Source: a phage
Sequence record: PZ402305.1
DNA length: 64,000 nt
Strand: one strand, 5' to 3'
Made by a program: the position numbers and the translations under genes. Within the stretch, counting starts at the first letter, position 1; each line of letters opens with the position of its first letter. This document shows positions 3,438-60,813 of the stretch, piece after piece. Below the pieces are notes generated by a model. The model was not told the DNA's origin. It worked only from the letters and a program-made list of their open reading frames with translations, and made no database searches.

Positions 3438-6113
3438 ATGTTTCCAATTCCAATATTTACTATTATGACCAGCACTGGTGTTGTTCCTCTGCCAGCAGGT
3501 ATTGTTAAAAAAGTAATCACTTTAGATTACCCAGATAATGCTGGTAATTCTAACAGCAGTTTAGCAATTTTGCTTAATGATGGTAGATTGTTTACTCAAG
3601 GCGCAAACCTTTTTGGTGAGATTGCAGATGGAACTCGTAGTGCACGATTCAATAATTTCCATTTAGCTTCTACTGTAGTAGCGGATGTGTTTACCGCAGA
3701 TCGTTGTTTTGTTATTAAAACTAACAGTGGGGGATGGCAATATTCAGGATTGACAGCAGGGTTGGTAGGATCTATAGCAGCAGGTGGTACGGACGCATGT
3801 GTAACTACTTGGACCAGCTTTCCATCTGTAATAACAGGGACTATCTCTTTAGCTAATCTTAAAGAGGTTAAGGGAGGATATAACAACACTCTCTGGTTAA
3901 TGAATAGTGGTGTTCTTTATGGATCAGGTCAAAACACAGTAGGCAGTTTAGGTGCAAGTACTACTAACGAAGTTTCTACTCCTCGTCAGATAACAAGTGC
4001 AGCAGTTGCTTTTGATGCAGGTTACAACCAATGCTCTTATGTCAACAATGTGGGAACCTTGCGTGTTTGTGGAGCTAGTAAAGGTTTAGCAGGTAATAAT
4101 AACACAACAACAGCTTTTGTCAATGCTAAGATATCCGCTACTGAAACAGTGTATGTCAAAGATTACATCAATACAGTTTCCCAGACAATAGTTGTAGGAG
4201 ATACCTCCGGTGGCACGGGTACAGTAAACTACTTATATGTTAGGTCTAATACAGAAACAACCTACACTAAACTGGATACCTTTGCAGCAGGTTTCTCAAC
4301 ATGGAAGTTTCCACCAAGCCGCCACTCTTTTTTCGTTGGGATCAATAATTCCTTGTGGGCTATTGGTAAGAACTACACTGCAAACTTAGGTTTGGGGTAT
4401 GATTCTGCGAGCGGAGATCCACTCCAAGTGGGAAAACCAGTTAAACCTGAAGGAGTGGGTTCTTGGGATATAAACAAGCTCACAAGCGTTCATACGCTGA
4501 ATATGGATGTTACTAACCAATTAGGTTATCAAGGAACCTTTTTCGTTTATAATGGAGATATGTATTATTCCGGTATTTGGAAAGATGGGAAAGCCTCGTA
4601 TCTGTTCAATAGCGGTCTAAACTATAATAAATTCACACCAATAGCAAGCTCCGTGATTACGGGTGATATTCTGGCAACTGGCTTAACTACAGATTCTTTA
4701 GGAATTTGTATTGTAGGTGGAACTAAACAGTTGACACATTCTGTTAGCCCAGAAGGAGGTAAACTTTTCAATATTAAATACACTTCTTCTGCCCCTGCAA
4801 ACATGACAATATCATCTACTGGTTTAATGACTTTCCATGCAGAAGGTGGTTTTGATGCAGGTATGACAGCCTTAAACGCCGAAGGAACAACTTTATCAGA
4901 TACCTCTGGAGGATATGCTTCAACATTGAGTGTTTACACCCCTAGCTTATCTGCGATGGATGTAGGAACAACACAAACAATGGTAGCAGAAATAACGCCA
5001 ACAGGAGCAGCAAGCTTACCTGGTATGGTTGTTGAGTATTTCTCTAATGACCCTACGGTAGCAACAGTTGACCCTGTTACAGGCGTTATTACAGCGGTTG
5101 CTGATGGAGGTTGTCGTATCGGTTGTAGAGCAACTTATCAAGGTGTGGTAACTGCCGAAGATAGTTCTTATCTCACAGTGAATGCTGTGGTGATTGTGAT
5201 GGATTATGATTTGACGCAAGAAACTATTCCGGCGGATGTAAAGGTCAACAGGAGTAACCGTTATGCCAGGGCTTCTGGAGATATCCTTGTACCTACAGAG
5301 AGTTCTGCTCCCGTAGCACCTTTAGAATATGTTGGTACAACTCCACAAGGTAGACGTGTTGTAGCAGCCAACCGTACACATATCTTTATCAACAATAACT
5401 TGACAACAGCTTCCCCGTGGTTGAAGACGAACTTGACAGTCACAGCATCAACAATCAACTCTCCGGTTGGAACTACGGCTAACACTTACAAGTTAACACC
5501 TTCTACAACTTCAGGACAACATATTTTATCAGCAGTGAATACAGCTTCTGATATTACAGCAGGTAAGCACTGGGCGGCATCCGTATTCTTGAAGCCAGAT
5601 GGGATCACTAAAGTGAAACTCAAATTGACTTCAGGAGATGAGATTAACGAAGGGACTTATGATCTTGTAGCTGGAACATTTACAGGTGCAGATGCAAACA
5701 TAATCGATATGGGGAATGGTTGGTATCGTGTAATTCTACACAAAGTGACAGTTGCCAAACAAGCATCTATAACCTATGAGATTATAGCTTTGAATGCAAG
5801 TGGATCAGACACTTTCGCAGGAGATGGTACGGCAGGTCTTATTGCTTGGGTTCCACAGCTTGAGATGGGTGATATGACAAATCCAGTTTGGGCGGGGACA
5901 CCATTTGTTTGTTCTTATGCACGAGACACTACCAGTGCTGTTACCTTCACTATTCCTAAGAATGGACATACTGGCGTGGACATTTACCACACTGATGGTA
6001 CTGTGCAACGAGAGGTCTTCACTGGTACAGCTACAACTTGGATGTTGACGTTCACCGCCGCAAGTGCGGATTGGGGATCGAAGTTCATTACAGGTTTGAA
6101 ATATTACGACTAA
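3438..6113 (+). CDS. large tail/fibre-associated structural protein with bacterial Ig-like segment
   Basis: 891 aa Thr/Ser/Gly-rich protein; segment VAEITPTGAAS...VATVDPVTGVITAVADGG resembles Big_2 Ig-like domains; RBS ggaggg; bidirectional terminator downstream. Confidence 0.55.
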   Translation: MFPIPIFTIMTSTGVVPLPAGIVKKVITLDYPDNAGNSNSSLAILLNDGRLFTQGANLFGEIADGTRSARFNNFHLASTVVADVFTADRCFVIKTNSGGWQYSGLTAGLVGSIAAGGTDACVTTWTSFPSVITGTISLANLKEVKGGYNNTLWLMNSGVLYGSGQNTVGSLGASTTNEVSTPRQITSAAVAFDAGYNQCSYVNNVGTLRVCGASKGLAGNNNTTTAFVNAKISATETVYVKDYINTVSQTIVVGDTSGGTGTVNYLYVRSNTETTYTKLDTFAAGFSTWKFPPSRHSFFVGINNSLWAIGKNYTANLGLGYDSASGDPLQVGKPVKPEGVGSWDINKLTSVHTLNMDVTNQLGYQGTFFVYNGDMYYSGIWKDGKASYLFNSGLNYNKFTPIASSVITGDILATGLTTDSLGICIVGGTKQLTHSVSPEGGKLFNIKYTSSAPANMTISSTGLMTFHAEGGFDAGMTALNAEGTTLSDTSGGYASTLSVYTPSLSAMDVGTTQTMVAEITPTGAASLPGMVVEYFSNDPTVATVDPVTGVITAVADGGCRIGCRATYQGVVTAEDSSYLTVNAVVIVMDYDLTQETIPADVKVNRSNRYARASGDILVPTESSAPVAPLEYVGTTPQGRRVVAANRTHIFINNNLTTASPWLKTNLTVTASTINSPVGTTANTYKLTPSTTSGQHILSAVNTASDITAGKHWAASVFLKPDGITKVKLKLTSGDEINEGTYDLVAGTFTGADANIIDMGNGWYRVILHKVTVAKQASITYEIIALNASGSDTFAGDGTAGLIAWVPQLEMGDMTNPVWAGTPFVCSYARDTTSAVTFTIPKNGHTGVDIYHTDGTVQREVFTGTATTWMLTFTAASADWGSKFITGLKYYD

Positions 6114-6139
6114 TAAAAAAGGGAACCCGCAAAGGTTCC
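6111..6139. terminator. bidirectional terminator between convergent blocks
   Basis: gggaacccgcaaaggttccc hairpin flanked by A-run upstream and T-run downstream; sits between + gene ending 6113 and - gene ending 6177. Confidence 0.7.
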
Positions 6140-6176
6140 CTTTTCTTTTATAAAAACTCTTTATAAATCAATAAGA

Positions 6177-7064
6177 TCAGAATGGAATATCATCGTCGAA
6201 GTCCATTGGAGGTTCTTCTTGATTACTTGGAGTTGGTTCTGGTTGTGGTTCAGGTTTCTTAACTTCTTTCTTCTCTTCTTTCTTAGGCTGTTCTGCGGAA
6301 CCACGAATGGCAGCAGCAACTTTATCAGACAGAGCCAGAACTTTACGAGCAGAATCAATCAGATCTTCTACAGAGACAGTCTTAATGGTATGGTCTTTAC
6401 AAGCATTGAGAATAGCGTGACCAACAGATGCCCCAAGATCATAATCATTAATATCAACGCCACGAGATTCAGCAATTTCAGATTTCAGCGTGACAGTTGC
6501 AGATTGAACAACCCCAGCGATATCGAAAGCATCGCCTTTAACACCATTACGAATCAGTTCCAGTGCACCATTTACTGCGTGACCAGTTTCCAGACCTACA
6601 GTATCACGTTTTTTATAGGACTGCTTAGGAGCAGCATCGTTGGAACCTTTATTGCCAGAAGATTTGTTAGACTTCTGAACACCATCGGTAGACAATACTG
6701 TAATACGAGATTTTTTAGTATTGTAGTAAGTTTTACCGCCTTTATTGTCAACGCGATCAATATCAATACTTACTTCTACACCTTTTTCAATAGTGATCCA
6801 ATTATCACCTTCTTTGACTTGCAGGTTTTCATAACCTTCTTTCAGTTCAATGTCACCAAGAGAAATCCAAACACCTTTCTCATCTGGTTTAGCACCTTTC
6901 TCTTTCAGAACAAGAGAAGCTCGGTGAGTTGAAACAATCGTTTTTCCTTCCCAATGGAAAGTTTTAGGTTCAGCGAATTTATCCAGTTTAACGTAGTCTA
7001 CGATACCAGTTGCATAAGTTACGGTTTTGCCTTTACGATCAGTTTCAGTATTAATTACGGACAT
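6177..7064 (-). CDS. ssb: single-stranded DNA-binding protein
   Basis: C-terminus ...PPMDFDDDIPF matches the canonical SSB acidic tail (DDDIPF); Lys/Glu/Pro-rich linker before tail; RBS gaggag. Confidence 0.65.
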   Translation of the reverse strand: MSVINTETDRKGKTVTYATGIVDYVKLDKFAEPKTFHWEGKTIVSTHRASLVLKEKGAKPDEKGVWISLGDIELKEGYENLQVKEGDNWITIEKGVEVSIDIDRVDNKGGKTYYNTKKSRITVLSTDGVQKSNKSSGNKGSNDAAPKQSYKKRDTVGLETGHAVNGALELIRNGVKGDAFDIAGVVQSATVTLKSEIAESRGVDINDYDLGASVGHAILNACKDHTIKTVSVEDLIDSARKVLALSDKVAAAIRGSAEQPKKEEKKEVKKPEPQPEPTPSNQEEPPMDFDDDIPF

Positions 7065-12574: not shown

Positions 12575-12607
12575 TTTTACTTCTCCTCTTGTTTGGTTGA
12601 TGAGACA

Positions 12608-12636
12608 AGTATAAGTCCCTTCCGTAAAGTTGTCAA
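12608..12636 (-). promoter_or_regulatory. sigma70-like promoter for 12143..12574
   Basis: Minus strand reads TTGACA-17 nt-TATACT; preceded by cUUCGg hairpin terminator (12655-12666) after primase-helicase stop. Confidence 0.55.
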
Positions 12637-12666
12637 CAGGTATTTTTAATAAAAGGGCCGAAGCCC

Positions 12667-19202: not shown

Positions 19203-19805
19203 TTATGGACATTCATACCATTCTTTTTTACCACCGAAGGCCATCACCACATCACAAATATCCAGACCAGCTTTGCCTACACCATATGCTTTCAGCTTCC
19301 ATTCCCCATCTTCACGAACCAAGGAAGCCACGTGGCAGATTGTGTTGCCAGCTACTTCAGGAGCCAGGAAGTCAAAATCCAGAATTTCCACATTGCGCTC
19401 GGAGTCGAAGATTTTAAGCATACCTTCAGAAGCATGACCAAAACGTTTCAGACCTGTATCATCATCAATGGTCAGAACAAAGGCAATCTCTTGTGCATCA
19501 GGAGAGATTTTAGCCAGAGTAATATCAATCTGCTCCATGCTGCCAGTTCCATCACGAACATCGTCACCAGCGAAGGTAGAACGTTCAGGATCAAACTTGT
19601 TAGCATAGCAAACCAGATGACGTGCAGACAGCATTTCAGGATTGCCAGCGGCATTGTGACGACAAACCAGTGCACTTACATCCAGATCCAGTTTAGAATC
19701 AGATTTCCAAGAGAATTCCAGGCGCAGTTCTTTCAGAGCCGGAGCAACCTTCTTCAGGGAAATTTTTTCGCTAGAGCCTTTTTTCAGGGAAATTTTATCA
19801 GTCAT
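19203..19805 (-). CDS. terD: TerD-family protein
   Basis: N-terminal ISLKK...ISLKK start and C-terminal EDGEWKLKAYGVGKAGLDICDVVMAFGG resemble the TerD domain (compare E. coli TerD ...NGEWKFRAVGQGYAGGL...); ~200 aa. Confidence 0.8.
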   Translation of the reverse strand: MTDKISLKKGSSEKISLKKVAPALKELRLEFSWKSDSKLDLDVSALVCRHNAAGNPEMLSARHLVCYANKFDPERSTFAGDDVRDGTGSMEQIDITLAKISPDAQEIAFVLTIDDDTGLKRFGHASEGMLKIFDSERNVEILDFDFLAPEVAGNTICHVASLVREDGEWKLKAYGVGKAGLDICDVVMAFGGKKEWYECP

Positions 19806-20090: not shown

Positions 20091-20319
20091 TTCTTCCTCC
20101 TAATGTTATCTCCGGTTTGTATATACGAAGAATTATAGCATTTTCATTTTCTTTGTCAACCCATTCTTCATAATCAGGCCATACATGAATCTCTACTCTA
20201 CTTACAATATCTTCCATTCGCACAGTCCCAATGAAATACTCTTTGAGACTGCGCATAATGAAAGCTTCTCTCTCACGCCAATAATTTTCTATGACTTGAG
20301 AGGCAAGCTCGTCGATCAT
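20071..20319 (-). CDS. hypothetical protein
   Basis: 82 aa ORF, overlaps neighbours by few nt. Confidence 0.45.
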   Translation of the reverse strand: MIDELASQVIENYWREREAFIMRSLKEYFIGTVRMEDIVSRVEIHVWPDYEEWVDKENENAIILRIYKPEITLGGRSVKLRN

Positions 20320-25788: not shown

Positions 25789-25830
25789 AAGTCTCTCCTA
25801 TAAAATAGCCTCCCGAAGGAGGCTCATCTA

Positions 25831-26805
25831 TTAAACAGCAGCTTCTTCTTTTTCAGGGAAGATAAAGCTTGCAATAACACCAAGAGCTAATGTGCCTAGA
25901 ACAATCATCAGACTTACGTTAGGGGAAATATCATGCGGGAGGAATGACCACTTGGCATGAAGTGTTTCACCGAACGGGTGATACATAAGTTTAGCACCGA
26001 CAAATACCAGAACCACAGCAACAGCTTTCTCTAAGTGAACCAGATATTTCACAGCCACACTTAACACAAAGAAAAGTGCACGTAAACCAAGAACAGCCAT
26101 CAGCATTGCAGAATAAACTAGCAGAGGTTCTTGTGTCACACCGATCACAGCCGGAACTGAATCAAAAGAGAAGACAATATCTGTAAGCTCAATAACAAAC
26201 ACACAAAGAAGAGCAGGAGTTGCATATTTAATACCATTCTTAATGGTGATGAACTTTTCACCATCCAGTGCATTGTGCACAGGCAGAACTTTACCTACTA
26301 AACGAACAGCCCAATGCTTAGAGTAATCAATATCCTCTTCTTCGTCACCACCTTTGATGATAGCCACGGCAGACCAAGCTACAATCAAACCGAACAACAC
26401 TTGGACCGACCAATGAAGGTTAAACAAAGCGGTCCCTGCTGCAACAAAAATACCTCGGAAGACAATGGCTCCTGCAATTCCCCAAAGTAAAATCTTATGT
26501 TGGAGATGTGTGCTCTTAATTCCAAAGCTTGCAAAAATTGCCATGAACACCATCAGGTTATCTACAGAAAGACTCTTTTCCAACACATAGCCACTTAGGA
26601 AAAGCGCGGCAAACTCTTTACCATGTTCTACCCAAATGAATGCGTAATATCCTAAAGCTAAAGCAATCCAAAAAACAGACCAAAGCAAAGCAGATTTAAT
26701 TCCAATTTCTTTATTCTCTTTATGACCAAAGAAATCAATACCAATAGACAATGCTAAAATACCAACTAAAACAACTACATCAATAATGGGGAAACCAAGT
26801 TGCAT
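25831..26805 (-). CDS. terC: TerC-family integral membrane protein
   Basis: 324 aa multi-pass membrane protein; YVLEKSLSVDNLMVF segment typical of TerC/Alx family. Confidence 0.75.
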   Translation of the reverse strand: MQLGFPIIDVVVLVGILALSIGIDFFGHKENKEIGIKSALLWSVFWIALALGYYAFIWVEHGKEFAALFLSGYVLEKSLSVDNLMVFMAIFASFGIKSTHLQHKILLWGIAGAIVFRGIFVAAGTALFNLHWSVQVLFGLIVAWSAVAIIKGGDEEEDIDYSKHWAVRLVGKVLPVHNALDGEKFITIKNGIKYATPALLCVFVIELTDIVFSFDSVPAVIGVTQEPLLVYSAMLMAVLGLRALFFVLSVAVKYLVHLEKAVAVVLVFVGAKLMYHPFGETLHAKWSFLPHDISPNVSLMIVLGTLALGVIASFIFPEKEEAAV

Positions 26806-26824
26806 TATTTTCTCCTTTCTCTTT

Positions 26825-26883
26825 GCGGGGAACCACTCCCCGCCTCATGTGATACATCTTACTCTATTCTAAAACTTTGTCAA
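26825..26883 (-). promoter_or_regulatory. early-type promoter with 5' stem-loop driving terC
   Basis: Minus strand reads TTGACA-16 nt-TAAGAT-gtatcacat-GAGGCGGGGAGTGGTTCCCCGC stem-loop, then RBS and terC ATG; same architecture as the 48.8-59.2 kb early promoters. Confidence 0.65.
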
Positions 26884-26886
26884 CAC

Positions 26887-27108
26887 TTATTTTGAAGAAC
26901 TTGAGGAAAAGATCCCACGTAGTACAGCCATGATAAATGCCACACACACCACAGTCCAGAAGGTGACAGGAACAGTGATATCTGTGTGACCCATCATTTC
27001 AACAACGTAGTTATAAGCCAGCAGCAGAAGCCATGCTGGAATCATACTAATCAGAAAAGCAATAACAAACACAATAATCACTGCAAGAATACCTGCTAAA
27101 ACGTCCAT
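26887..27108 (-). CDS. small membrane protein (2 TM)
   Basis: 73 aa, two hydrophobic helices. Confidence 0.45.
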   Translation of the reverse strand: MDVLAGILAVIIVFVIAFLISMIPAWLLLLAYNYVVEMMGHTDITVPVTFWTVVCVAFIMAVLRGIFSSSSSK

Positions 27109-48104: not shown

Positions 48105-48362
48105 AGAGAATGACGCGCAGGGGCGGTGTTTGTCTCGCGTTCCCGTGTCCCCTCGCCATGTAATAAGAATAACAGATCCAGCCAGGAAAGCAAGCGATTA
48201 TTTCATCTTTACATTTCTTTACAAATATATAGCGCCCAGCCTACCGGCGATCAACCTTCCAACCAGTGCCCCTGGTATGTTAGCCCCGCCTTTACGCCGT
48301 GGGGTGGCGCTTCCTCTTCTGTATGTAAAACAGTATAAGCCCGATCCCTGGGCTTGTCAAGA

Positions 48363-48629
48363 TTATTTTTTGTTTTCTTGCCAGGATAGGACACCTAACC
48401 AAAAATACATATCGCCCCGCGCCCCTGGCGGGATCTTGCTTTCCCCGCCGCCACTGCAAGCCCATAGATAACCATTTGCGAACGTATCAAAATGATCTAT
48501 CTCTTCCACCTTATGATCGCCCAGGTTGAGAACGGTTTCAACCTTTAAGCCCGTTGCGCTTGCTACCTGGTGCACCGTGCCGCCTTGCCAGCCCAATGAG
48601 TGCATAAGGTGTAATGTAGTAGTTGTCAT
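48363..48629 (-). CDS. hypothetical protein in GC-rich island
   Basis: 88 aa ORF with RBS-like aaagggcg upstream; distinct GC-rich codon usage; followed on minus strand by TTGACA-17-TATACT promoter at ~48318-48346. Confidence 0.3.
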   Translation of the reverse strand: MTTTTLHLMHSLGWQGGTVHQVASATGLKVETVLNLGDHKVEEIDHFDTFANGYLWACSGGGESKIPPGARGDMYFWLGVLSWQENKK

Positions 48630-48737
48630 GGTATCGCCCTTTCTTTGTTGTGCGCCCTGGTTGGCGCGGTAGAAAGATGATAGCCCTTTCCTTTATATAT
48701 AGCAAGCAAAAAGAAAATAAAAAGATTGAAAAAGTGG

Positions 48738-48797
48738 TTGACGTTCGCCAGGTGGCGGCATAATATTTACCACGTAGGGCGGCAATGGTGCCGCTCA
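48738..48797 (+). promoter_or_regulatory. early promoter P1 + 5' stem-loop
   Basis: TTGACG-17-TAATAT-ttac-CACGTAGGGCGGCAATGGTGCCGCTCA; stem GCGGCA/TGCCGC. Confidence 0.7.
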
Positions 48798-48815
48798 CTA
48801 TTTGGAGTTAAGATC

Positions 48816-49013
48816 ATGGCAACATTGCACATTGTGGCGAAAGCTGGACAAATCAACGTAATAGTAAACGGTTTTACTGAGTTCAGTCATCCCCAGGATG
48901 ATCATGAAACGGTTTTATCTTTCATTGATTCACTGTTAGAAATGGGAGTAATTACAGAAGATCAGCATACTGCAAAATGCAAGCGCGTTAAGCAGATTGC
49001 AGGAATAGAATAA
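48816..49013 (+). CDS. early small protein (65 aa)
   Basis: ORF track start 48726 lies upstream of promoter P1; ATG at 48816 follows RBS ggag. Confidence 0.55.
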   Translation: MATLHIVAKAGQINVIVNGFTEFSHPQDDHETVLSFIDSLLEMGVITEDQHTAKCKRVKQIAGIE

Positions 49014-49018
49014 AAGTC

Positions 49019-49076
49019 TTGACAACAAGCCACAACCTGATAAGATGTATCACATAGGGGCGACAAGCGCCCCGCC
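49019..49076 (+). promoter_or_regulatory. early promoter P2 + 5' stem-loop
   Basis: TTGACA-16-TAAGAT-gtat-CACATAGGGGCGACAAGCGCCCCGCC. Confidence 0.7.
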
Positions 49077-49097
49077 TAACAGAAGAGAGAAATCATC

Positions 49098-50345: not shown

Positions 50346-50441
50346 ATGATTAATAAAGAAAATAGCTTGACGGTTGGAACGATTAACGCTATCATTTTCG
50401 CCGTTCCATTTTGGGTTGTATTAGCGGCTATTATTTTCTAA
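50346..50441 (+). CDS. early hydrophobic micro-protein (31 aa)
   Basis: Not in ORF track (<60 aa); ATG after agagg; MINKENSLTVGTINAIIFAVPFWVVLAAIIF is a single TM helix; sits between P4 and P5. Confidence 0.35.
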   Translation: MINKENSLTVGTINAIIFAVPFWVVLAAIIF

Positions 50442-50451
50442 AAAAATATTC

Positions 50452-50512
50452 TTGACAACGTTTTTTAATCTGATAAGATGTATCACATAGGGCGGCGGAA
50501 TACTTCCCCGCC
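50452..50512 (+). promoter_or_regulatory. early promoter P5 + 5' stem-loop
   Basis: TTGACA-16-TAAGAT-gtat-CACATAGGGCGGCGGAATACTTCCCCGCC. Confidence 0.7.
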
Positions 50513-50533
50513 AAAACAAAAAAGGGTAACACA

Positions 50534-50896
50534 ATGAGCAAGCAAATCAATACTATCATGTTTAATCTGGTATCTTTCCGCGATGATATGAAAAATTTAC
50601 CACGTGAAACGGTTGATATTCATGTTTCAGCTTATCGCGCCCTTATTGATATGTTACCGCTAAAACGTGATCAACATGCCGCTAATATGATGCTTAATGC
50701 TATGCTTAAAAAGATGATTCAAACGGATCTTACTCTGGCGTATGAGTATCAAGGGCGCTTATATGCTACTTACAACAAAGCGGTACCTGGTCTGGGAAGT
50801 ACCGAAGAGTTGCACGGCTTAAACCTGGATCAAAACACTTGGGATAGTATGCGCCGCGTTATGGTATGGGCCGAAAGCGGTAAAATTTACGAATAA
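50534..50896 (+). CDS. early small protein (120 aa)
   Basis: RBS aaaggg; follows P5. Confidence 0.6.
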   Translation: MSKQINTIMFNLVSFRDDMKNLPRETVDIHVSAYRALIDMLPLKRDQHAANMMLNAMLKKMIQTDLTLAYEYQGRLYATYNKAVPGLGSTEELHGLNLDQNTWDSMRRVMVWAESGKIYE

Positions 50897-50902
50897 AAAC
50901 GG

Positions 50903-50959
50903 TTGACACTGTTTAAAATTCTGGTATAGTTTATCACGTAGGGCGGCAATGGTGCCGCC
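50903..50959 (+). promoter_or_regulatory. early promoter P6 + 5' stem-loop
   Basis: TTGACA-17-TATAGT-ttat-CACGTAGGGCGGCAATGGTGCCGCC. Confidence 0.7.
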
Positions 50960-50979
50960 AATAATAAAAGGTTAACATC

Positions 50980-51159
50980 ATGGCTATCATTGCAAAAACT
51001 GAGATTATAGGTTTAGATTCGATCCTCCTGGCTTATGAGGAAACTTTAAAAATGTATGTAGTGACCTATGGTGATTATGTGCGTGAATACGAATACATTG
51101 ATCTTGCTTTCGAATGTTACATTCGCCAGGTCAATAAAGCCTATAACGATTATCGTTAA
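50980..51159 (+). CDS. early small protein (59 aa)
   Basis: Not in ORF track; RBS aaaagg; ATG at 50980 follows P6. Confidence 0.45.
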   Translation: MAIIAKTEIIGLDSILLAYEETLKMYVVTYGDYVREYEYIDLAFECYIRQVNKAYNDYR

Positions 51160-51178
51160 AAGTTTTAGTCTTATACTA

Positions 51179-51230
51179 TTGACAATGAGTGATAGTATAA
51201 GCATAATAACTTTTATCGGGAATACTTCCC
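51179..51230 (+). promoter_or_regulatory. early promoter P7 + 5' stem-loop
   Basis: TTGACA-...-CATAAT-...-CGGGAATACTTCCC. Confidence 0.6.
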
Positions 51231-51256
51231 ACTAACCAAAAAGAGAGAGTGACACC

Positions 51257-51622
51257 ATGGCTATTAATATCAATGTTTCCGTTTATGCTACCCTGGCTGA
51301 CACGGCTAAAATTGAATTATCCAGCATTGAGGCGGTGCATATTAGCGCCCGTCGCTGGTTTCAACAGTCCTACGGTAACACATATTTTTCTTTAATAGTT
51401 GACGTTGAGATCGGCGGTAAACTGATCGAGGTGGTTAACGTTCCGTTTCAATATGGCTATGGTGATCATTTTGATACCGTCGCCCTGGAAGAATTTAGCA
51501 AGGTTATCAACCTTGAGGGCAAGGAATTTTCACGCGGCGCGTATCTTTCCCGTTTTTGCCGTGACAATGGGATCACTGTATACAGTCATGCAAGCGATGT
51601 AAAACGTAAAAAAGATTTATAA
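51257..51622 (+). CDS. early small protein (121 aa)
   Basis: RBS aagagagag; follows P7. Confidence 0.6.
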   Translation: MAININVSVYATLADTAKIELSSIEAVHISARRWFQQSYGNTYFSLIVDVEIGGKLIEVVNVPFQYGYGDHFDTVALEEFSKVINLEGKEFSRGAYLSRFCRDNGITVYSHASDVKRKKDL

Positions 51623-51627
51623 AAGTA

Positions 51628-51690
51628 TTGACAGCACGAATAAAAAGAGTAAACTGTATTACATAGAGAGCGGGAACACTTCCCGCCTCA
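51628..51690 (+). promoter_or_regulatory. early promoter P8 + 5' stem-loop
   Basis: TTGACA-16-TAAACT-gtatt-ACATAGAGAGCGGGAACACTTCCCGCCTCA. Confidence 0.7.
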
Positions 51691-51710
51691 CTGAAAAAGA
51701 GAGAAAAATC

Positions 51711-51950
51711 ATGGCTAAATCTAAAATGTACAACGGTCACAAAAACAAAACTCATTGGAATGTAAGCCTTTGGATTAATAACGATGAATCATTATATCGG
51801 TTGGCGAAAGAATTTATCGCCGCTAATACTAATCGTAATGATGCTGCGCGGGATATGATGCTTTTTCTGGAACAAACTGGACAAGATAAAACGCCAGACG
51901 GTTTCAAATATAGCACTACTGCGATCCGCGCCGCGATGGTTGGAATGTAA
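51711..51950 (+). CDS. early small protein (79 aa)
   Basis: RBS aaagagag; follows P8. Confidence 0.6.
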   Translation: MAKSKMYNGHKNKTHWNVSLWINNDESLYRLAKEFIAANTNRNDAARDMMLFLEQTGQDKTPDGFKYSTTAIRAAMVGM

Positions 51951-51959
51951 TAAAAACAG

Positions 51960-52019
51960 TTGACAACGTTTAAAATTAGTGTAAGATGTATCACATAGGG
52001 CGGGAAGTGGTTTCCCGCC
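51960..52019 (+). promoter_or_regulatory. early promoter P9 + 5' stem-loop
   Basis: TTGACA-16-TAAGAT-gtat-CACATAGGGCGGGAAGTGGTTTCCCGCC. Confidence 0.7.
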
Positions 52020-52041
52020 AACAACAGAGAGATTAAAGATT

Positions 52042-52833: not shown

Positions 52834-52871
52834 TTGACTTTTCGTTATAGCGCCTTATAATGGGCGCTATA
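52834..52871 (+). promoter_or_regulatory. early promoter P12 with -10 embedded in palindrome
   Basis: TTGACT then TATAGCGCC-TTATAAT-GGGCGCTATA perfect inverted repeat enclosing the TATAAT hexamer. Confidence 0.55.
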
Positions 52872-52908
52872 GAGAAGAGAAACCAATCACCAGAAAGAGA
52901 GAAAGAAA

Positions 52909-53127
52909 ATGGCAATCCGTAAAATTAAAGTTGTTTGCATTGAATCAACTGGTGGCGCGTTTGTAGTTGGTCAGAAGTATAATGCGGTTTTAATGGGCGT
53001 GGATTGGAAGGTTAAAGGTCTTGACGGTTACGAATACGGCACTACTCGCGGCTTGCGTGGTCGAATCGGATACGTGAGCTTTGACAACAAAGAAAAATTT
53101 GTTTTCGATACTGTTATGAGTAAATAG
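52909..53127 (+). CDS. early small protein (72 aa)
   Basis: RBS agagagaaag; follows P12. Confidence 0.6.
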   Translation: MAIRKIKVVCIESTGGAFVVGQKYNAVLMGVDWKVKGLDGYEYGTTRGLRGRIGYVSFDNKEKFVFDTVMSK

Positions 53128-53200
53128 CACGAATTGCTAAAAACTAATCTGCGAATTGCTGTAATATCAACTAATCGAAACACATAAAGAGAAAAACATC

Positions 53201-54086: not shown

Positions 54087-54114
54087 AAGGGCGCACCAAG
54101 CGCCCTTTCTTTTT
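54087..54114 (+). terminator. rho-independent terminator (copy 1)
   Basis: aaGGGCGCaccaaGCGCCCtttcttttt; identical core to terminator at 59172-59200. Confidence 0.8.
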
Positions 54115-56101: not shown

Positions 56102-56128
56102 GAGGCGGGGGGAGTATTCCCCGCCGTC
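56102..56128 (+). promoter_or_regulatory. promoter-less GC stem-loop (terminator/processing-site candidate)
   Basis: GAGGCGGGGGGAGTATTCCCCGCCGTC hairpin of the same type as the 5' stem-loops but without upstream TTGACA. Confidence 0.4.
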
Positions 56129-56174
56129 AATATGGCGGGGCAATAAGGCAACGCCCATTAATGAGGGTAAAATC

Positions 56175-56894: not shown

Positions 56895-56953
56895 TTGACA
56901 CAGATCGCCAGTGTGCTAATATTTACCACGTAGGGCGGCAATGGTGCCGCTCC
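56895..56953 (+). promoter_or_regulatory. early promoter P20 + 5' stem-loop
   Basis: TTGACA-17-TAATAT-ttac-CACGTAGGGCGGCAATGGTGCCGCTCC. Confidence 0.7.
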
Positions 56954-56971
56954 CCGAAAAAGGTAAACATT

Positions 56972-57163
56972 ATGGAAACCATCTCCTACCTGGAATCGAA
57001 TAACATGTTTTTTGCGCCCGTTGATGAAATCATCGAAGCATTAAACAACGAGGAAGGGATCAAAGGTTTATCTTATAGCCAACTTTTAGGAATGGTTGCA
57101 GCAAATGAAGAGCTTGCTTACTATGTTGAAAATTTTGATGAAGCTGTAATCTTTACAAAATAA
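56972..57163 (+). CDS. early small acidic protein (63 aa)
   Basis: RBS aaaaagg; follows P20. Confidence 0.55.
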   Translation: METISYLESNNMFFAPVDEIIEALNNEEGIKGLSYSQLLGMVAANEELAYYVENFDEAVIFTK

Positions 57164-57166
57164 TCC

Positions 57167-57223
57167 TTGATCTAATCTCTTAGATAACTTATATTTAATG
57201 CGTAGGGCGGCAATGGTGCCGCC
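57167..57223 (+). promoter_or_regulatory. early promoter P21 + 5' stem-loop
   Basis: TTGATC-...-TATATT-taa-TGCGTAGGGCGGCAATGGTGCCGCC. Confidence 0.6.
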
Positions 57224-58409: not shown

Positions 58410-58464
58410 CACCGGATCACGCTTACATTATCATTTATCACGTAGGGCGGGAATGTTTCCCGCC
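58406..58464 (+). promoter_or_regulatory. early promoter P22 + 5' stem-loop
   Basis: TTGACA-...-CATTAT-...-CACGTAGGGCGGGAATGTTTCCCGCC. Confidence 0.65.
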
Positions 58465-58482
58465 TGATTTAGGAGTCATATC

Positions 58483-58716
58483 ATGATCGAACAAATTAAA
58501 AGCACTAAACCAAATGTTAACGGTAATGTTTCTCACTTTATCGGGGATAATGAAAGAGGTACACCGTACGCCGCCGTAACCGTTCAACCGAACGGGGATT
58601 ATTGGTTTACCGTGTACGGATCTTACTCTTTTGGACGTTCGGCACATGATAAGATCTTGCAAGTGGTTAAGCCTACTGGGAAGAATATCACAGCAGAAAA
58701 ATTTTATAAAAAATAA
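58483..58716 (+). CDS. early small protein (77 aa)
   Basis: RBS taggag; follows P22. Confidence 0.6.
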   Translation: MIEQIKSTKPNVNGNVSHFIGDNERGTPYAAVTVQPNGDYWFTVYGSYSFGRSAHDKILQVVKPTGKNITAEKFYKK

Positions 58717-58727
58717 CTTGCTTTATA

Positions 58728-58777
58728 GCTCCTGTTAACTTATAGTTATTGCGTAGGGCGAGCAATACAGCAAGCCC
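58728..58777 (+). promoter_or_regulatory. early promoter P23 + variant 5' stem-loop
   Basis: TTGCTT-...-TATAGT-tatt-GCGTAGGGCGAGCAATACAGCAAGCCC. Confidence 0.5.
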
Positions 58778-59171: not shown

Positions 59172-59200
59172 AAGGGGCGCACCAAGCGCCCTTTCTTTTT
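59172..59200 (+). terminator. rho-independent terminator (copy 2)
   Basis: aaGGGGCGCaccaaGCGCCCtttcttttt; same core as 54087-54114. Confidence 0.8.
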
Positions 59201-60273
59201 GCCCGAATAATGTTGATAGATTCCGCCTATGGAAAACCGACACAGAACAAAACTGAATAAATAGCGGTATCGAGCTAATCAACCATTAAACGAATAACCA
59301 TACCTCCCAGGGTAACAGGCTGTTAGAGAGCCATTTAGAGCGGTTAAAATCGATCAACAACCAACAAAAAACCATCAAAAACACCCTTTTACCTCCTTTC
59401 TAGTGCAATGATAACCATTATCATCTATCCATGTTTATCTATGCAATATAAGTGCATAACTATAATGTTGATAATAGTTCGCAACAACTAACTAACCAAC
59501 AACCTAAAACAATAAGCAAACTAATCATAATCAAAGGAATAATAGCAAGATGATTGATAACGACAAACAATCAAACCATGATGAATACTAAGCAAGATAA
59601 CGATAACACGACAAAACAACCAACTAACGAACAATAACAAACGAAACCATTAAAATAATAACTATTAGCAAAATAGTGCCTGAATGAAATCATTACAAAA
59701 CGAATCATTCACAGGATCATCATTAGCACGCTATGCCGGACACATAGCGAGCTAATAATAAGCCAACTACACCCCAACAATCATAACCATCGGTGATGGT
59801 TATTTCTTGTTACTGCGTAGCTTGCAATAATTGCAAGCGTAATACGCTTACACTTATTGCGCTGGCTTATTATTAGCATTATATGTAATTACCAAGATCA
59901 TAACATTAGCGCAATAACAATAATCATTGTGGTAATTACAAGATGAAATAATCGCTATCGCTCAAAGATCATTAGCAAGATGAATAATTGCACGTAGCAA
60001 CATGAGCGAATAGCGACAGGTTGCATAGTGTGCACATAGATGTACACGTAGTGTATAAACATACAGGAAAATAAAGGCTAATCTTTTGGGGGCGAATACT
60101 ATCGCGTAGCGATATGTTGAGCACTAAGAGAAGAGATAAACCTTAATCATGGGGGCGTAAATATCCGCAGGATTGCCAACGGCGATCCGGTAGGATGTTG
60201 AGCATCTTCTCTTAAACGTAAATAAAATCAGAAAATTCTTGATTTATTTTAGTTTTTATGTTAATAAACGTTT

Positions 60274-60295
60274 AAATAATAATCATTCTCATATG
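60274..60295. promoter_or_regulatory. Fur-box-like near-palindrome C
   Basis: AAATAATAATCATTCTCATATG; shares ATAATCATTCTCAT core with box B at 48084. Confidence 0.35.
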
Positions 60296-60452
60296 AATAA
60301 TAGTCTGCTTGTCATGAGCGGGATCAGTTGACAATGTTCCGTCATATGATGAAGTTGCCAAACCATTGATAAATAAGTGTTTGTGTGATTTATAATCAAG
60401 TGGCCCACCTTGTCGCTATGTTGGCATGAGCCTTGCATAAGTCATTGAATAC

Positions 60453-60478
60453 GAATGATAATTATTCTCATTCGCATG
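60453..60478. promoter_or_regulatory. Fur-box-like near-palindrome D
   Basis: GAATGATAATTATTCTCATTCGCATG; shares GATAAT..ATTCGCAT with box A at 48025. Confidence 0.35.
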
Positions 60479-60813
60479 ATATTTGAGAATTGTCGCTGCG
60501 TGGACCTGACGGCCCGAAAATTCGCGTTAAGCACTTCTTACGTATGCGCCATGATTTTTGCCATATGATATTGATTCTATTAGATATTCTTGCCATGATT
60601 GCCATGAAACAGGGTGTCCCGAAATAATCTCTCCCCGTAGATATTTTGGGTTACTTTTTATACAAGAGTGGGGTGTCAAAAATAATCGGTATATATGGGA
60701 TAATTGATAGGAATCCCCTATGATAATTCGATTGTAATTCCCTGAGATTGATCGTATGATGTTGGTGATTGATGATTGCCATGAAAGATGGCTAACAATG
60801 AGAGGAGATTATC

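What the first reader, a model, noticed from the sequence alone, without database searches (positions are those of the whole stretch)
26805..26883. The same promoter/stem-loop unit drives terC on the opposite strand
On the minus strand upstream of terC the sequence reads TTGACA, 16 nt, TAAGAT, gtatcacat, then GAGGCGGGGAGTGGTTCCCCGC, then RBS and ATG. The gtatcacat spacer and hairpin are the same as in the 48.8-59.2 kb early units. So terC is wired into the early regulon although it lies in a different block, implying the membrane protein acts early in infection.
Basis: seen in the sequence. Interest (0 to 1): 0.6.

Follow-up and report, generated by a model that had tools for sequence, protein, structure and literature searches.

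The report
Early-type promoter–hairpin cassette upstream of terC
The phage's TerC membrane-protein gene has its own copy of the host-type promoter plus 5' hairpin cassette that otherwise occurs only in front of about 20 small genes in one cluster, so it is probably switched on with them; the promoter is already annotated and the cassette type resembles one known from T4-like phages.

Summary
On the minus strand, TTGACA (26883-26878), a 16-nt spacer, TAAGAT (26861-26856), GTATCACATGAG, a 7-bp G/C hairpin (26843-26825), GGAG and the terC ATG (26805) fill the whole intergenic gap.

A covariance model built from 19 window units scores it 75.8 bits (E about 1e-13). It is the only minus-strand copy in the window and in the whole 147.7-kb phAPEC8 genome. 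All other copies lie at 48.7-58.8 kb on the plus strand. A Justusliebigvirus genome shows the same "cluster plus terC" layout.

The terC hairpin is kept in five lineages through compensatory changes. None of 46 distinct units has a U-tract, so these are not classic terminators. The stems start about 9-12 nt after the -10 box, which would put them at the 5' end of the mRNA.

The window and phAPEC8 differ by small-ORF cassettes whose junctions lie inside the units, as described for PeSL elements of T4-like phages.

The phAPEC8 GenBank record already annotates the terC promoter. Early timing is inferred, not shown, and read-through from the nrdD side is not excluded.

Verdict: real and modestly interesting. 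It is a PeSL-like cassette family in a subfamily where it had not been described.

The parts
26884..26894 (-). A-rich stretch upstream of the -35 box (CAAAATAAGTG). It resembles an UP element and overlaps the stop codon of the upstream 73-aa ORF.
   Evidence: the consensus of the 19 units is A-rich in these columns.
26878..26883 (-). -35 hexamer TTGACA
   Evidence: TTG is invariant in all 19 aligned units.
26856..26861 (-). -10 hexamer TAAGAT, 16 nt after the -35 box
   Evidence: The phAPEC8 record annotates this as a 'host dependent promoter'.
26844..26855 (-). Conserved discriminator and start region GTATCACATGAG. The predicted transcription start is about 26848-26850 (inferred, not measured).
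   Evidence: The position of the start follows from the usual 6-8 nt distance after a -10 box.
26825..26843 (-). Hairpin: 7-bp stem GCGGGGA/TCCCCGC with loop GTGGT. The 60-nt leader containing it has a minimum free energy of -15.6 kcal/mol, and the 43-nt unit segment -14.3. The hairpin is followed by AAAGAGAA, with no T-run.
   Evidence: Orthologues keep the hairpin through compensatory changes.
26806..26824 (-). Purine-rich, unstructured leader with a Shine-Dalgarno GGAG (26815-26812), 6 nt before the ATG
25831..26805 (-). terC coding sequence, 324 aa, TerC family integral membrane protein
   Evidence: Pfam PF03741, 138 bits. Orthologues occur across Stephanstirmvirinae.
25797..25824 (-). Terminator-like hairpin AGCCTCC-ttcg-GGAGGCT followed by ATTTTAT, directly after the terC stop codon. 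It closes the cassette.
   Evidence: Conserved in four relatives. Annotated as a terminator in the ASO2A record.
48727..48809 (+). cluster unit (promoter + hairpin) before a 65-aa ORF
   Evidence: 61.5 bits; ORF
49008..49090 (+). cluster unit before a 90-aa ORF; exact TAAGATGTATCACAT
   Evidence: 57.3 bits
49363..49442 (+). cluster unit before an 85-aa ORF
   Evidence: 56 bits
50249..50331 (+). cluster unit
   Evidence: 67.5 bits
50441..50524 (+). cluster unit before a 120-aa ORF; exact TAAGATGTATCACAT; second closest paralogue of the terC unit (78%)
   Evidence: 75.8 bits
50892..50973 (+). cluster unit before a 59-aa ORF
   Evidence: 83.2 bits
51617..51700 (+). cluster unit before a 79-aa ORF
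   Evidence: 55.4 bits
51949..52031 (+). cluster unit before a 75-aa ORF; closest paralogue of the terC unit (84% over 62 nt, same GTGGT loop)
   Evidence: 71.6 bits
52268..52349 (+). cluster unit before a 70-aa ORF
   Evidence: 76.4 bits
52567..52650 (+). cluster unit before a 55-aa ORF
   Evidence: 57.4 bits
53415..53496 (+). cluster unit before a 117-aa ORF
   Evidence: 71.4 bits
53850..53928 (+). cluster unit before a 48-aa ORF
   Evidence: 64.3 bits
54317..54400 (+). cluster unit before a 68-aa ORF
   Evidence: 59.9 bits
54600..54680 (+). cluster unit before a 94-aa ORF
   Evidence: 62.7 bits
54975..55058 (+). weaker cluster unit (TTGCAA -35) before a 39-aa ORF
   Evidence: 29.7 bits
55468..55549 (+). 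cluster unit before a 94-aa ORF
   Evidence: 73.6 bits
55831..55917 (+). cluster unit before a 56-aa ORF
   Evidence: 58.5 bits
56884..56965 (+). cluster unit before a 63-aa ORF that is absent from phAPEC8. It is the left partner of a cassette indel whose junction lies inside the hairpin.
   Evidence: 79.3 bits
57156..57237 (+). cluster unit before a 99-aa ORF; right partner of the same indel
   Evidence: 64 bits
58395..58477 (+). cluster unit before a 77-aa ORF that is absent from phAPEC8; left partner of a second cassette indel
   Evidence: 56.9 bits
58707..58790 (+). weaker cluster unit before a 122-aa ORF; right partner of the second indel
   Evidence: 23.8 bits

Best explanation
The 81-nt gap upstream of terC is one copy of a repeated regulatory cassette found in phAPEC8-type phages (Stephanstirmvirinae). 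The cassette has these parts, in order:
- an A-rich upstream element;
- a near-consensus host sigma-70 promoter;
- a conserved start region;
- a G/C-rich hairpin that would sit 3-6 nt from the 5' end of the transcript;
- a purine-rich unstructured leader with a strong Shine-Dalgarno sequence.

The unmodified host RNA polymerase should recognise it as soon as the DNA enters the cell. terC would then be transcribed on its own, as a transcript of about 1.05 kb ending at the hairpin-plus-T tail at 25824-25797. This would happen in parallel with the roughly 20 single-ORF cassettes at 48.7-58.8 kb.

The hairpin is most likely a 5'-terminal mRNA element. It would protect the transcript from 5'-end-dependent decay (RppH/RNase E) and shield the ribosome-binding site from upstream context. 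It is unlikely to be a terminator.

Because the units are 60-85% alike, they also act as patches of homology at which small-ORF cassettes are gained, lost and swapped.

Shown: the anatomy, the copy census, conservation, compensatory changes, the absence of U-tracts, and indel junctions inside units.

Inferred: promoter activity, start site, early timing, and mRNA stabilisation.
For: Anatomy.

Census:
- In the window plus the whole phAPEC8 genome, strong model hits occur only in the plus-strand cluster and once on the minus strand at terC (75.8 bits, E about 1e-13). There are none in the structural-gene half of the genome.
- Justusliebigvirus alia has the same layout: about 14 clustered units plus one at terC.

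Conservation of the terC unit: it is present in phiWec190, tuntematon, phi92 and Klebsiella phage KP13-26. Their stems are GCGGGGA/TCCCCGC, GCGGGGAA/TTCCCCGC, GCGGAGGA/TCCTCCGC and AGAGGGAG/CTCCCTCT, so pairing is kept while the sequence changes.

Across 46 distinct units:
- All 46 have a predicted stem-loop downstream of the -10 box, with fold energies of about -12 to -21 kcal/mol.
- The G/C stem starts 9-12 nt after the -10 box in about three quarters of them. Most smaller values reflect extra outer pairs added by the folding program.
- None has 5 or more T in the 8 nt after the stem.
- 82.8% of pair cells are paired, 32 cells changed on both sides, and 0 of 500 shuffles reach these values. 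Sliding the 3' partners by 1-3 columns lowers the paired fraction to 47-72%.

Real terminators with T-runs exist elsewhere in the same cluster (54087-54107 and 59172-59194), so the phage uses a different design where it terminates.

Every cluster unit precedes one small ORF of 39-122 aa of unknown function.

Cassette indels between the window and phAPEC8 have their crossover inside the shared hairpin.

5'-terminal stem-loops are established mRNA stabilisers in E. coli (Emory 1992 and Bouvet & Belasco 1992, as listed in PMC3997798).
Against: - No transcription start sites or time-course data exist for this phage group, so 'early' and the start position are inferences.
- For terC, the predicted unpaired 5' tail is 4-6 nt. 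From my memory of the ompA work, that is at the upper limit for protection.
- No terminator lies between nrdD (about 32.2 kb) and the terC promoter, so read-through may supply much of the terC mRNA.
- Some PeSL stem-loops of T4-like phages cut downstream reporter expression as strongly as a terminator (PMC2839356). An attenuator role is therefore not excluded.
- Folding the single terC leader is not better than shuffled sequence (z = -1.3). The support for the structure comes only from comparison between units and between phages.
- In KP13-26 and phi92-type phages the terC hairpin differs in sequence from the cluster hairpins. Any sequence-specific co-regulation would not hold there.
Confidence: 0.6

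Rival explanations
1. The hairpin is a terminator or attenuator that stops transcription coming from the upstream gene, as in the PeSL model and the ASO2A annotation. Each gene would then be insulated and expressed only from its own promoter. At terC, it would block read-through from the nrdD-nrdG genes.
For: The ASO2A record annotates the terC hairpin as a rho-independent terminator. A PeSL stem-loop inserted before lacZ reduced expression as strongly as rrnB T1 (PMC2839356). The hairpins lie between genes and are G/C-rich.
Against: None of 46 units has a T-run after the stem; the median is 0-1 T in 8 nt. The terminator scan does not flag the terC hairpin, yet it flags the hairpin after terC. 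The stem sits at a near-fixed distance downstream of the unit's own -10 box, so it would also attenuate the unit's own transcript. The same cluster contains classic hairpin-plus-T terminators.
Confidence: 0.15
2. The hairpin, as RNA or DNA, is the binding site of a phage-encoded factor that controls the whole set together. This could be shut-off of early transcription or translation, or a tag that spares phage mRNAs from phage-induced decay. terC would then be a true member of that regulon.
For: Within one phage the stems are more alike than pairing alone requires: GGCGG...CCGCC cores, a recurrent AATGG loop, and a conserved CAC(A/G)TAGGG before the stem. In this phage the terC unit shares these features.
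Against: Three stem types coexist in the window. In KP13-26 the terC stem is AGAGGGAG/CTCCCTCT, whereas that phage's cluster stems are GGCGGGAA/TTCCCGCC. The similarity is explained equally well by common descent and by recombination among the units. No candidate factor was identified.
Confidence: 0.12
3. The conserved 20-mer is a phage-specific promoter, as in the phAPEC8 GenBank annotation ('putative promoter determined with PHIRE'). It would be recognised by a modified or phage-encoded transcription machinery.
For: The phAPEC8 record labels GTAGGGCGGCAATGGTGCCG and its variants as promoters.
Against: The 20-mer is a palindrome that always lies 9-12 nt downstream of a complete sigma-70 promoter. 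Pairing rather than sequence is what is conserved. The ORF start follows within about 20-30 nt. PHIRE only reports repeated words.
Confidence: 0.03
4. The unit at terC is a passive remnant. It would be a copy of an early unit placed there by recombination, with no particular role, and terC would be expressed mainly by read-through with the nucleotide-metabolism genes.
For: The units are recombination-prone. The terC region is mosaic between relatives. There is no upstream terminator.
Against: The promoter, hairpin and terminator around terC are conserved across at least three lineages in which TerC is only 71-88% identical, and the hairpin has compensatory changes. That argues for long-term selection on the unit.
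Confidence: 0.1

Closest known systems
PeSL (promoter-early stem-loop) cassettes of T4-like phages RB49/phi1, PST and nt-1/KVP40 (Arbiol et al. 2010, PMC2839356; Comeau et al. 2014, PMC4122927)
   Same: - A repeated intergenic motif of about 80 nt with an A/T-rich upstream part, a near-consensus sigma-70 promoter, a G-run/C-run stem-loop, then a Shine-Dalgarno sequence and a start codon.
- Tens of copies, clustered in front of small ORFs of unknown function.
- Close relatives differ by ORF cassettes whose junctions lie inside the motifs.
   Different: - It occurs in a different phage lineage (Stephanstirmvirinae, with weaker matches in Vequintavirus).
- The stem-loop is nearly always at one position, just downstream of the predicted start. 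PeSL stem-loops occupy five different positions and are mostly between or over the promoter boxes.
- No U-tract is present, so a role as a 5' mRNA element fits better than a terminator role.
- Promoter activity, termination and mini-circle formation have not been tested here.
5'-terminal stabiliser stem-loops (E. coli ompA and papA 5' UTRs; the T7 gene 10 leader used in pET vectors, which I cite from memory)
   Same: A stable hairpin within a few nucleotides of the predicted 5' end, followed by an unstructured A/G-rich leader and a strong ribosome-binding site.
   Different: The start site has not been mapped and the mRNA half-life has not been measured. The predicted 5' tail at terC (4-6 nt) is longer than in most cluster units (about 3-4 nt).
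Moron-type autonomous gene cassettes (promoter - gene - terminator) in phage genomes
   Same: terC is bracketed by its own promoter and its own terminator-like hairpin, inside a block of otherwise tightly packed genes.
   Different: The terC cassette is conserved at the same position across genera rather than sporadic. Its promoter belongs to a repeated family.
yybP-ykoY manganese riboswitch, which controls bacterial TerC-family genes such as alx
   Same: Both are regulatory 5' leaders of a TerC-family gene.
   Different: There is no match to the Rfam model, even at a permissive threshold. The leader here is only about 45 nt.

Membership tests
PeSL cassette (architecture class) | [quoted passage not shown] | tested here: met
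   TTGACA, 16 nt, TAAGAT, with an A-rich upstream stretch. TTG is invariant in the 19 aligned units.
PeSL cassette (architecture class) | An adjacent stable stem-loop, often a G-run followed by a C-run, inside the same intergenic motif | tested here: met
   Hairpin at 26843-26825. All 46 distinct units carry one, and covariation is above the controls.
PeSL cassette (architecture class) | Many copies concentrated in a variable region, each just upstream of a small ORF of unknown function | tested here: met
   21 units at 48.7-58.8 kb, each before a 39-122 aa ORF. The terC copy is the exception: its gene is larger and belongs to a known family.
PeSL cassette (architecture class) | Close relatives differ by ORF insertions or deletions whose crossover lies within the motifs | tested here: met
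   Window 56951-57187 and 58450-58742 are absent from phAPEC8, with junctions in CGTAGGGCGGCAATGGTGCCGC and CGTAGGGCG. The replacement at 50415-51959 is bounded by units.
PeSL cassette (architecture class) | The stem-loop terminates or attenuates transcription, and the promoter is very strong in reporter assays | not testable with these tools
   This needs lacZ or in vitro transcription assays. The sequence argues against classic termination, since no unit has a U-tract.
PeSL cassette (architecture class) | Formation of circular cassette DNAs (mini-circles) during infection | not testable with these tools
   This needs inverse PCR on infected cells.
Intrinsic (rho-independent) terminator | A G/C-rich hairpin immediately followed by a run of T/U | tested here: not met
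   The tail after the terC hairpin is AAAGAGAA, with 0 T. None of 46 units has 5 or more T in 8 nt, and the scan does not flag the hairpin.
5'-terminal mRNA stabiliser stem-loop | A hairpin at or within a few unpaired nucleotides of the transcript's 5' end | tested here: inconclusive
   The G/C stem starts 12 nt after the -10 box at terC and 9-12 nt after it in about three quarters of the units. That gives about 3-6 unpaired nt if transcription starts 6-8 nt after the -10 box. The start site has not been measured.
5'-terminal mRNA stabiliser stem-loop | The hairpin lengthens mRNA half-life in an RNase E/RppH-dependent way | not testable with these tools
   This needs half-life measurements with stem mutants.
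yybP-ykoY riboswitch | A match to the Rfam covariance model in the TerC-gene leader | tested here: not met
   No Rfam hit at gathering score across the whole window. At E up to 5, 26600-27100 gave only chance-level hits to unrelated families.
TerC family protein (the gene driven by the unit) | A match to Pfam PF03741 above its gathering score | tested here: met
   138.3 bits against a cut-off of 27.8.

The most novel reading that the evidence does not exclude
The 5' hairpin may be a recognition tag that defines an immediate-early regulon. One possibility is that it marks phage transcripts to be spared from phage-induced, RNase E-dependent mRNA decay. Another is that it is the target of a phage shut-off factor. 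Tellurite-resistance-type proteins would have been deliberately recruited into this regulon: TerC here, and also TerD in a Klebsiella relative. That would point to an unrecognised early role of Ter-family membrane or ion-homeostasis proteins in host takeover or superinfection exclusion.
Probability: 0.12. Interest if true: 0.6.

Novelty: new member of a known kind. Interest (0 to 1): 0.35.

Why it matters
The result gives a concrete, testable prediction for a widely isolated group of therapeutic coliphages. TerC, one of the few accessory genes of known family in these genomes, should be made from its own host-type promoter at the very start of infection, together with about 20 unknown small proteins.

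It also corrects conflicting database labels: the hairpins are called 'promoters' in one record and 'terminators' in another.

Finally, it extends the PeSL idea to a second, unrelated group of large myoviruses. In that idea, repeated promoter/stem-loop cassettes serve both as expression signals and as recombination sites for shuffling small genes.

None of this is surprising to a phage transcription specialist, and the promoter itself was already annotated.

Tried and rejected
- **Generic promoter scan.** Consensus hexamer matches in 22-34 kb are at chance level (31 against 32.7). The hexamers alone therefore prove nothing, and the whole-unit model was used instead.
- **Single-sequence folding.** The terC leader gives z = -1.3, which is not informative.
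- **MAFFT plus RNAalifold on the 19 units.** Only 4 pairs were recovered, because stems of different length were put out of register. I replaced this with a model-based alignment and per-unit folding.
- **Rfam.** There were no hits at gathering score and only chance-level hits at a permissive threshold. A riboswitch, or any known nut- or put-like RNA family, is therefore excluded.
- **Literature searches.** I looked for transcriptomics or promoter/hairpin descriptions in phAPEC8-, phi92- and rV5-like phages. Nothing went beyond promoter lists.
- **PHROGs on nine cluster ORFs.** All belong to families of unknown function.
- **The unit as crossover point for terC allele exchange.** The identity profiles place the breakpoints inside the first ~100 nt of terC and at its 3' end, not cleanly in the unit. 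I do not claim this.

Full report
**What the window is.** The region around the finding is 99.2-99.4% identical to Escherichia phage phAPEC8 and vB_Ec-G1, which belong to Phapecoctavirus in the subfamily Stephanstirmvirinae. The gene downstream of the finding is a TerC-family membrane protein (Pfam PF03741, 138 bits).

**Checking the observation.**
- The stop codon of a 73-aa ORF lies at 26889-26887.
- TTGACA lies at 26883-26878, followed by a 16-nt spacer and TAAGAT at 26861-26856.
- GTATCACATGAG follows, then a 7-bp G/C stem with a 5-nt loop at 26843-26825.
- An A/G-rich leader with GGAG (26815-26812) leads to the ATG at 26805.

The unit fills the whole 81-nt intergenic gap. The 15-mer TAAGATGTATCACAT recurs exactly three times in the 49-52 kb region. 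The hairpin 22-mer has no second copy within three mismatches, so the hairpin is a variant rather than "the same".

Hexamer matches alone are at chance level in this region. I therefore aligned 19 units from the window and built a covariance model from them. The terC unit scores 75.8 bits, E about 1e-13, among the six best window hits. Its closest paralogue is the unit at 51949-52031. The two are 84% identical over 62 nt without gaps, including the functionally unconstrained spacer, and they differ by one compensatory G-C/A-T pair in the stem. The units are therefore related by descent, not merely by convergence on a consensus.

**Census.** I fetched the complete phAPEC8 genome and scanned it together with the window.
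- Strong hits above 40 bits fall only in one plus-strand cluster. This is window 48.7-58.8 kb, equivalent to phAPEC8 143.6-147.6 kb plus 0.2-4.5 kb.
- There is exactly one strong hit on the minus strand, at terC.
- The structural-gene half of the genome has none.
- Ordinary sigma-70-like promoters without a hairpin score 15-24 bits (for example window 12583-12647 and 20094-20170, both minus strand). The hairpin-bearing class is therefore distinct.

A complete Justusliebigvirus genome (OZ035799) shows the same layout. About 14 units lie in one plus-strand cluster, and a single minus-strand unit lies directly upstream of terC (TerC position). In Klebsiella phage KP13-26 the two blocks I scanned hold a plus-strand cluster of units, one minus-strand unit at terC, and further minus-strand hits. 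One of those sits in front of a TerD-domain gene.

**Conservation of the terC cassette.** TerC is present throughout the subfamily at 71-100% amino-acid identity. In phiWec190, tuntematon, phi92 and KP13-26 the gene is preceded by a -35/-10 pair, a hairpin at the same place and a purine-rich leader. It is followed by a UUCG-loop hairpin with a T-rich tail. The 5' stems are:
- window and phiWec190: GCGGGGA/TCCCCGC
- tuntematon: GCGGGGAA/TTCCCCGC
- phi92: GCGGAGGA/TCCTCCGC
- KP13-26: AGAGGGAG/CTCCCTCT

Pairing is kept while the sequence changes. Across 46 distinct units from four phages, 82.8% of pair cells are standard pairs and 32 cells changed on both sides. No shuffle out of 500 reaches these values, and sliding the partner columns by 1-3 lowers the paired fraction to 47-72%. 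This alignment was fitted to the model, so it leans towards the structure. The independent per-unit folds agree with it.

**What the hairpin is not.**
- It is not a classic terminator. None of the 46 units has five or more T in the eight bases after the stem. The tails are purine-rich, and the terC tail is AAAGAGAA. The cluster contains true hairpin-plus-T terminators at 54087-54107 and 59172-59194, and terC has one at 25824-25807.
- It is probably not an independent promoter. The G/C stem begins 9-12 nt after the -10 box in about three quarters of the units; smaller values come mostly from extra outer pairs added by the folding program. [quoted passage not shown]
- It is not a known RNA family. 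No Rfam family matches, including the manganese riboswitch that commonly precedes bacterial TerC genes.

**Most likely mechanism.** The anatomy is a strong host-type promoter, a 5'-terminal hairpin, an unstructured A/G-rich leader and a strong ribosome-binding site. This fits a design for fast, high expression from unmodified host RNA polymerase. The hairpin would act as a 5' mRNA protector and context insulator, as shown for ompA and papA in E. coli (references collected in PMC3997798). This step is inference, because no start-site or half-life data exist for these phages. An attenuator role cannot be excluded, because a PeSL stem-loop behaved like a terminator in a reporter (PMC2839356).

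**The units as recombination sites.** I compared the cluster with phAPEC8 by BLASTN and inspected the junctions.
- Window 56951-57187 carries a 63-aa ORF between two units. phAPEC8 has a single chimeric unit there, with the crossover inside the shared CGTAGGGCGGCAATGGTGCCGC.
- Window 58450-58742 (an ORF of 77-81 aa, depending on the start codon) is likewise missing from phAPEC8, with the junction at CGTAGGGCG.
- A 1.5-kb replacement (50415-51959) is bounded by units.

This is the behaviour described for PeSL cassettes of T4-like phages.

**What was already known.** The phAPEC8 GenBank record already marks TGTTGACA...GTATCACAT upstream of terC as a "putative host dependent promoter". It marks the cluster hairpins as "putative promoter determined with PHIRE". 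The ASO2A record calls the terC hairpin a terminator. I found no paper describing the composite unit, or the link between terC and the cluster, in this phage group.

**Verdict on the interpretation.** It is well supported that terC carries a bona fide member of the cluster's cassette family and that this is conserved. It remains a reasonable but untested inference that the cluster is "early" and that terC therefore acts early. On the minus strand no terminator lies between about 32.27 kb and the terC promoter, so read-through from the nrdD-nrdG genes may add to or even dominate terC expression.

I rate this a real, ordinary-to-modestly-interesting regulatory feature: a PeSL-like cassette family in a new lineage, with one conserved outlying copy at terC.

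Noticed in passing
window 19203-19805 (-); L013:15677-16279 and L013:16298-16380: The phage also encodes a TerD-domain protein (Pfam PF02342, 98.9 bits), 6 kb downstream of terC on the same strand. In Klebsiella phage KP13-26 the TerD gene has its own promoter-plus-hairpin unit. In the window it lies two ORFs downstream of a hairpin-less TTGACA-N17-TATAAT promoter at 20159-20131.
   Followed up: partly
window 25866-26716 compared with L007 (tuntematon) and L009 (phiWec190): The body of terC exists as two alleles only about 65-72% identical, while the flanks are 96-100% identical in tuntematon. In phiWec190 a 400-nt patch holding the 73-aa ORF and the unit is 100% identical to the window, against a background of about 75%. 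The locus is a recombination mosaic.
   Followed up: partly
window 50415-51959, 52886-53193, 56951-57187, 58450-58742; phAPEC8 1268-1626 and 4950-5489: These are the cassette-sized differences between the window phage and phAPEC8 in the small-ORF cluster. Most are bounded by promoter/hairpin units. One is bounded by two copies of the same terminator, AAGGG(G)CGCaccaaGCGCCCTT.
   Followed up: yes
window 48311-48371 (-): A minus-strand TTGACA...TATACT promoter has an inverted repeat (AGCCCAGGGATCGGGCT) between its two boxes. It points into about 0.8 kb (47.56-48.3 kb) with no long minus-strand ORF and runs antisense to the ORF at 48130-48471. It could make an antisense or small RNA. There is no Rfam match.
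   Followed up: partly
window 52834-52885 (+): In this promoter the -10 box TATAAT is the loop of an 11-bp palindrome (TTATAGCGCCT/GGGCGCTATAG). This is a different promoter/stem-loop arrangement from the main family. It sits at the edge of a 300-nt indel relative to phAPEC8.
   Followed up: no
window 56104-56160 (+): Two adjacent G/C hairpins (GGCGGGGGG..TTCCCCGCC and GGCGGGGCAATAAGGCAACGCCC) have no recognisable promoter. They lie between an ORF end and the next start codon.
   Followed up: no
window 59200-60810: A 1.6-kb A/T-rich stretch right after the cluster's last terminator has no ORF longer than 50 aa. It is unannotated in phAPEC8 (5513-7021). It contains several short direct and inverted repeats. 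It could be an origin of replication or a genome-end region.
   Followed up: partly
GenBank records found: Near-identical genomes are deposited as Campylobacter, Acinetobacter and Klebsiella phages (B15, ABPW7, ZCKP1). Their TerC proteins are 99-100% identical to that of this coliphage. The host labels in some records look doubtful.
   Followed up: no
search hits H115, H116, H124, H130: Weaker matches to the unit (about 75% identity over about 90% of its length) occur in Vequintavirus phages such as FV3. The cassette family may therefore extend across the wider rV5-like group.
   Followed up: no
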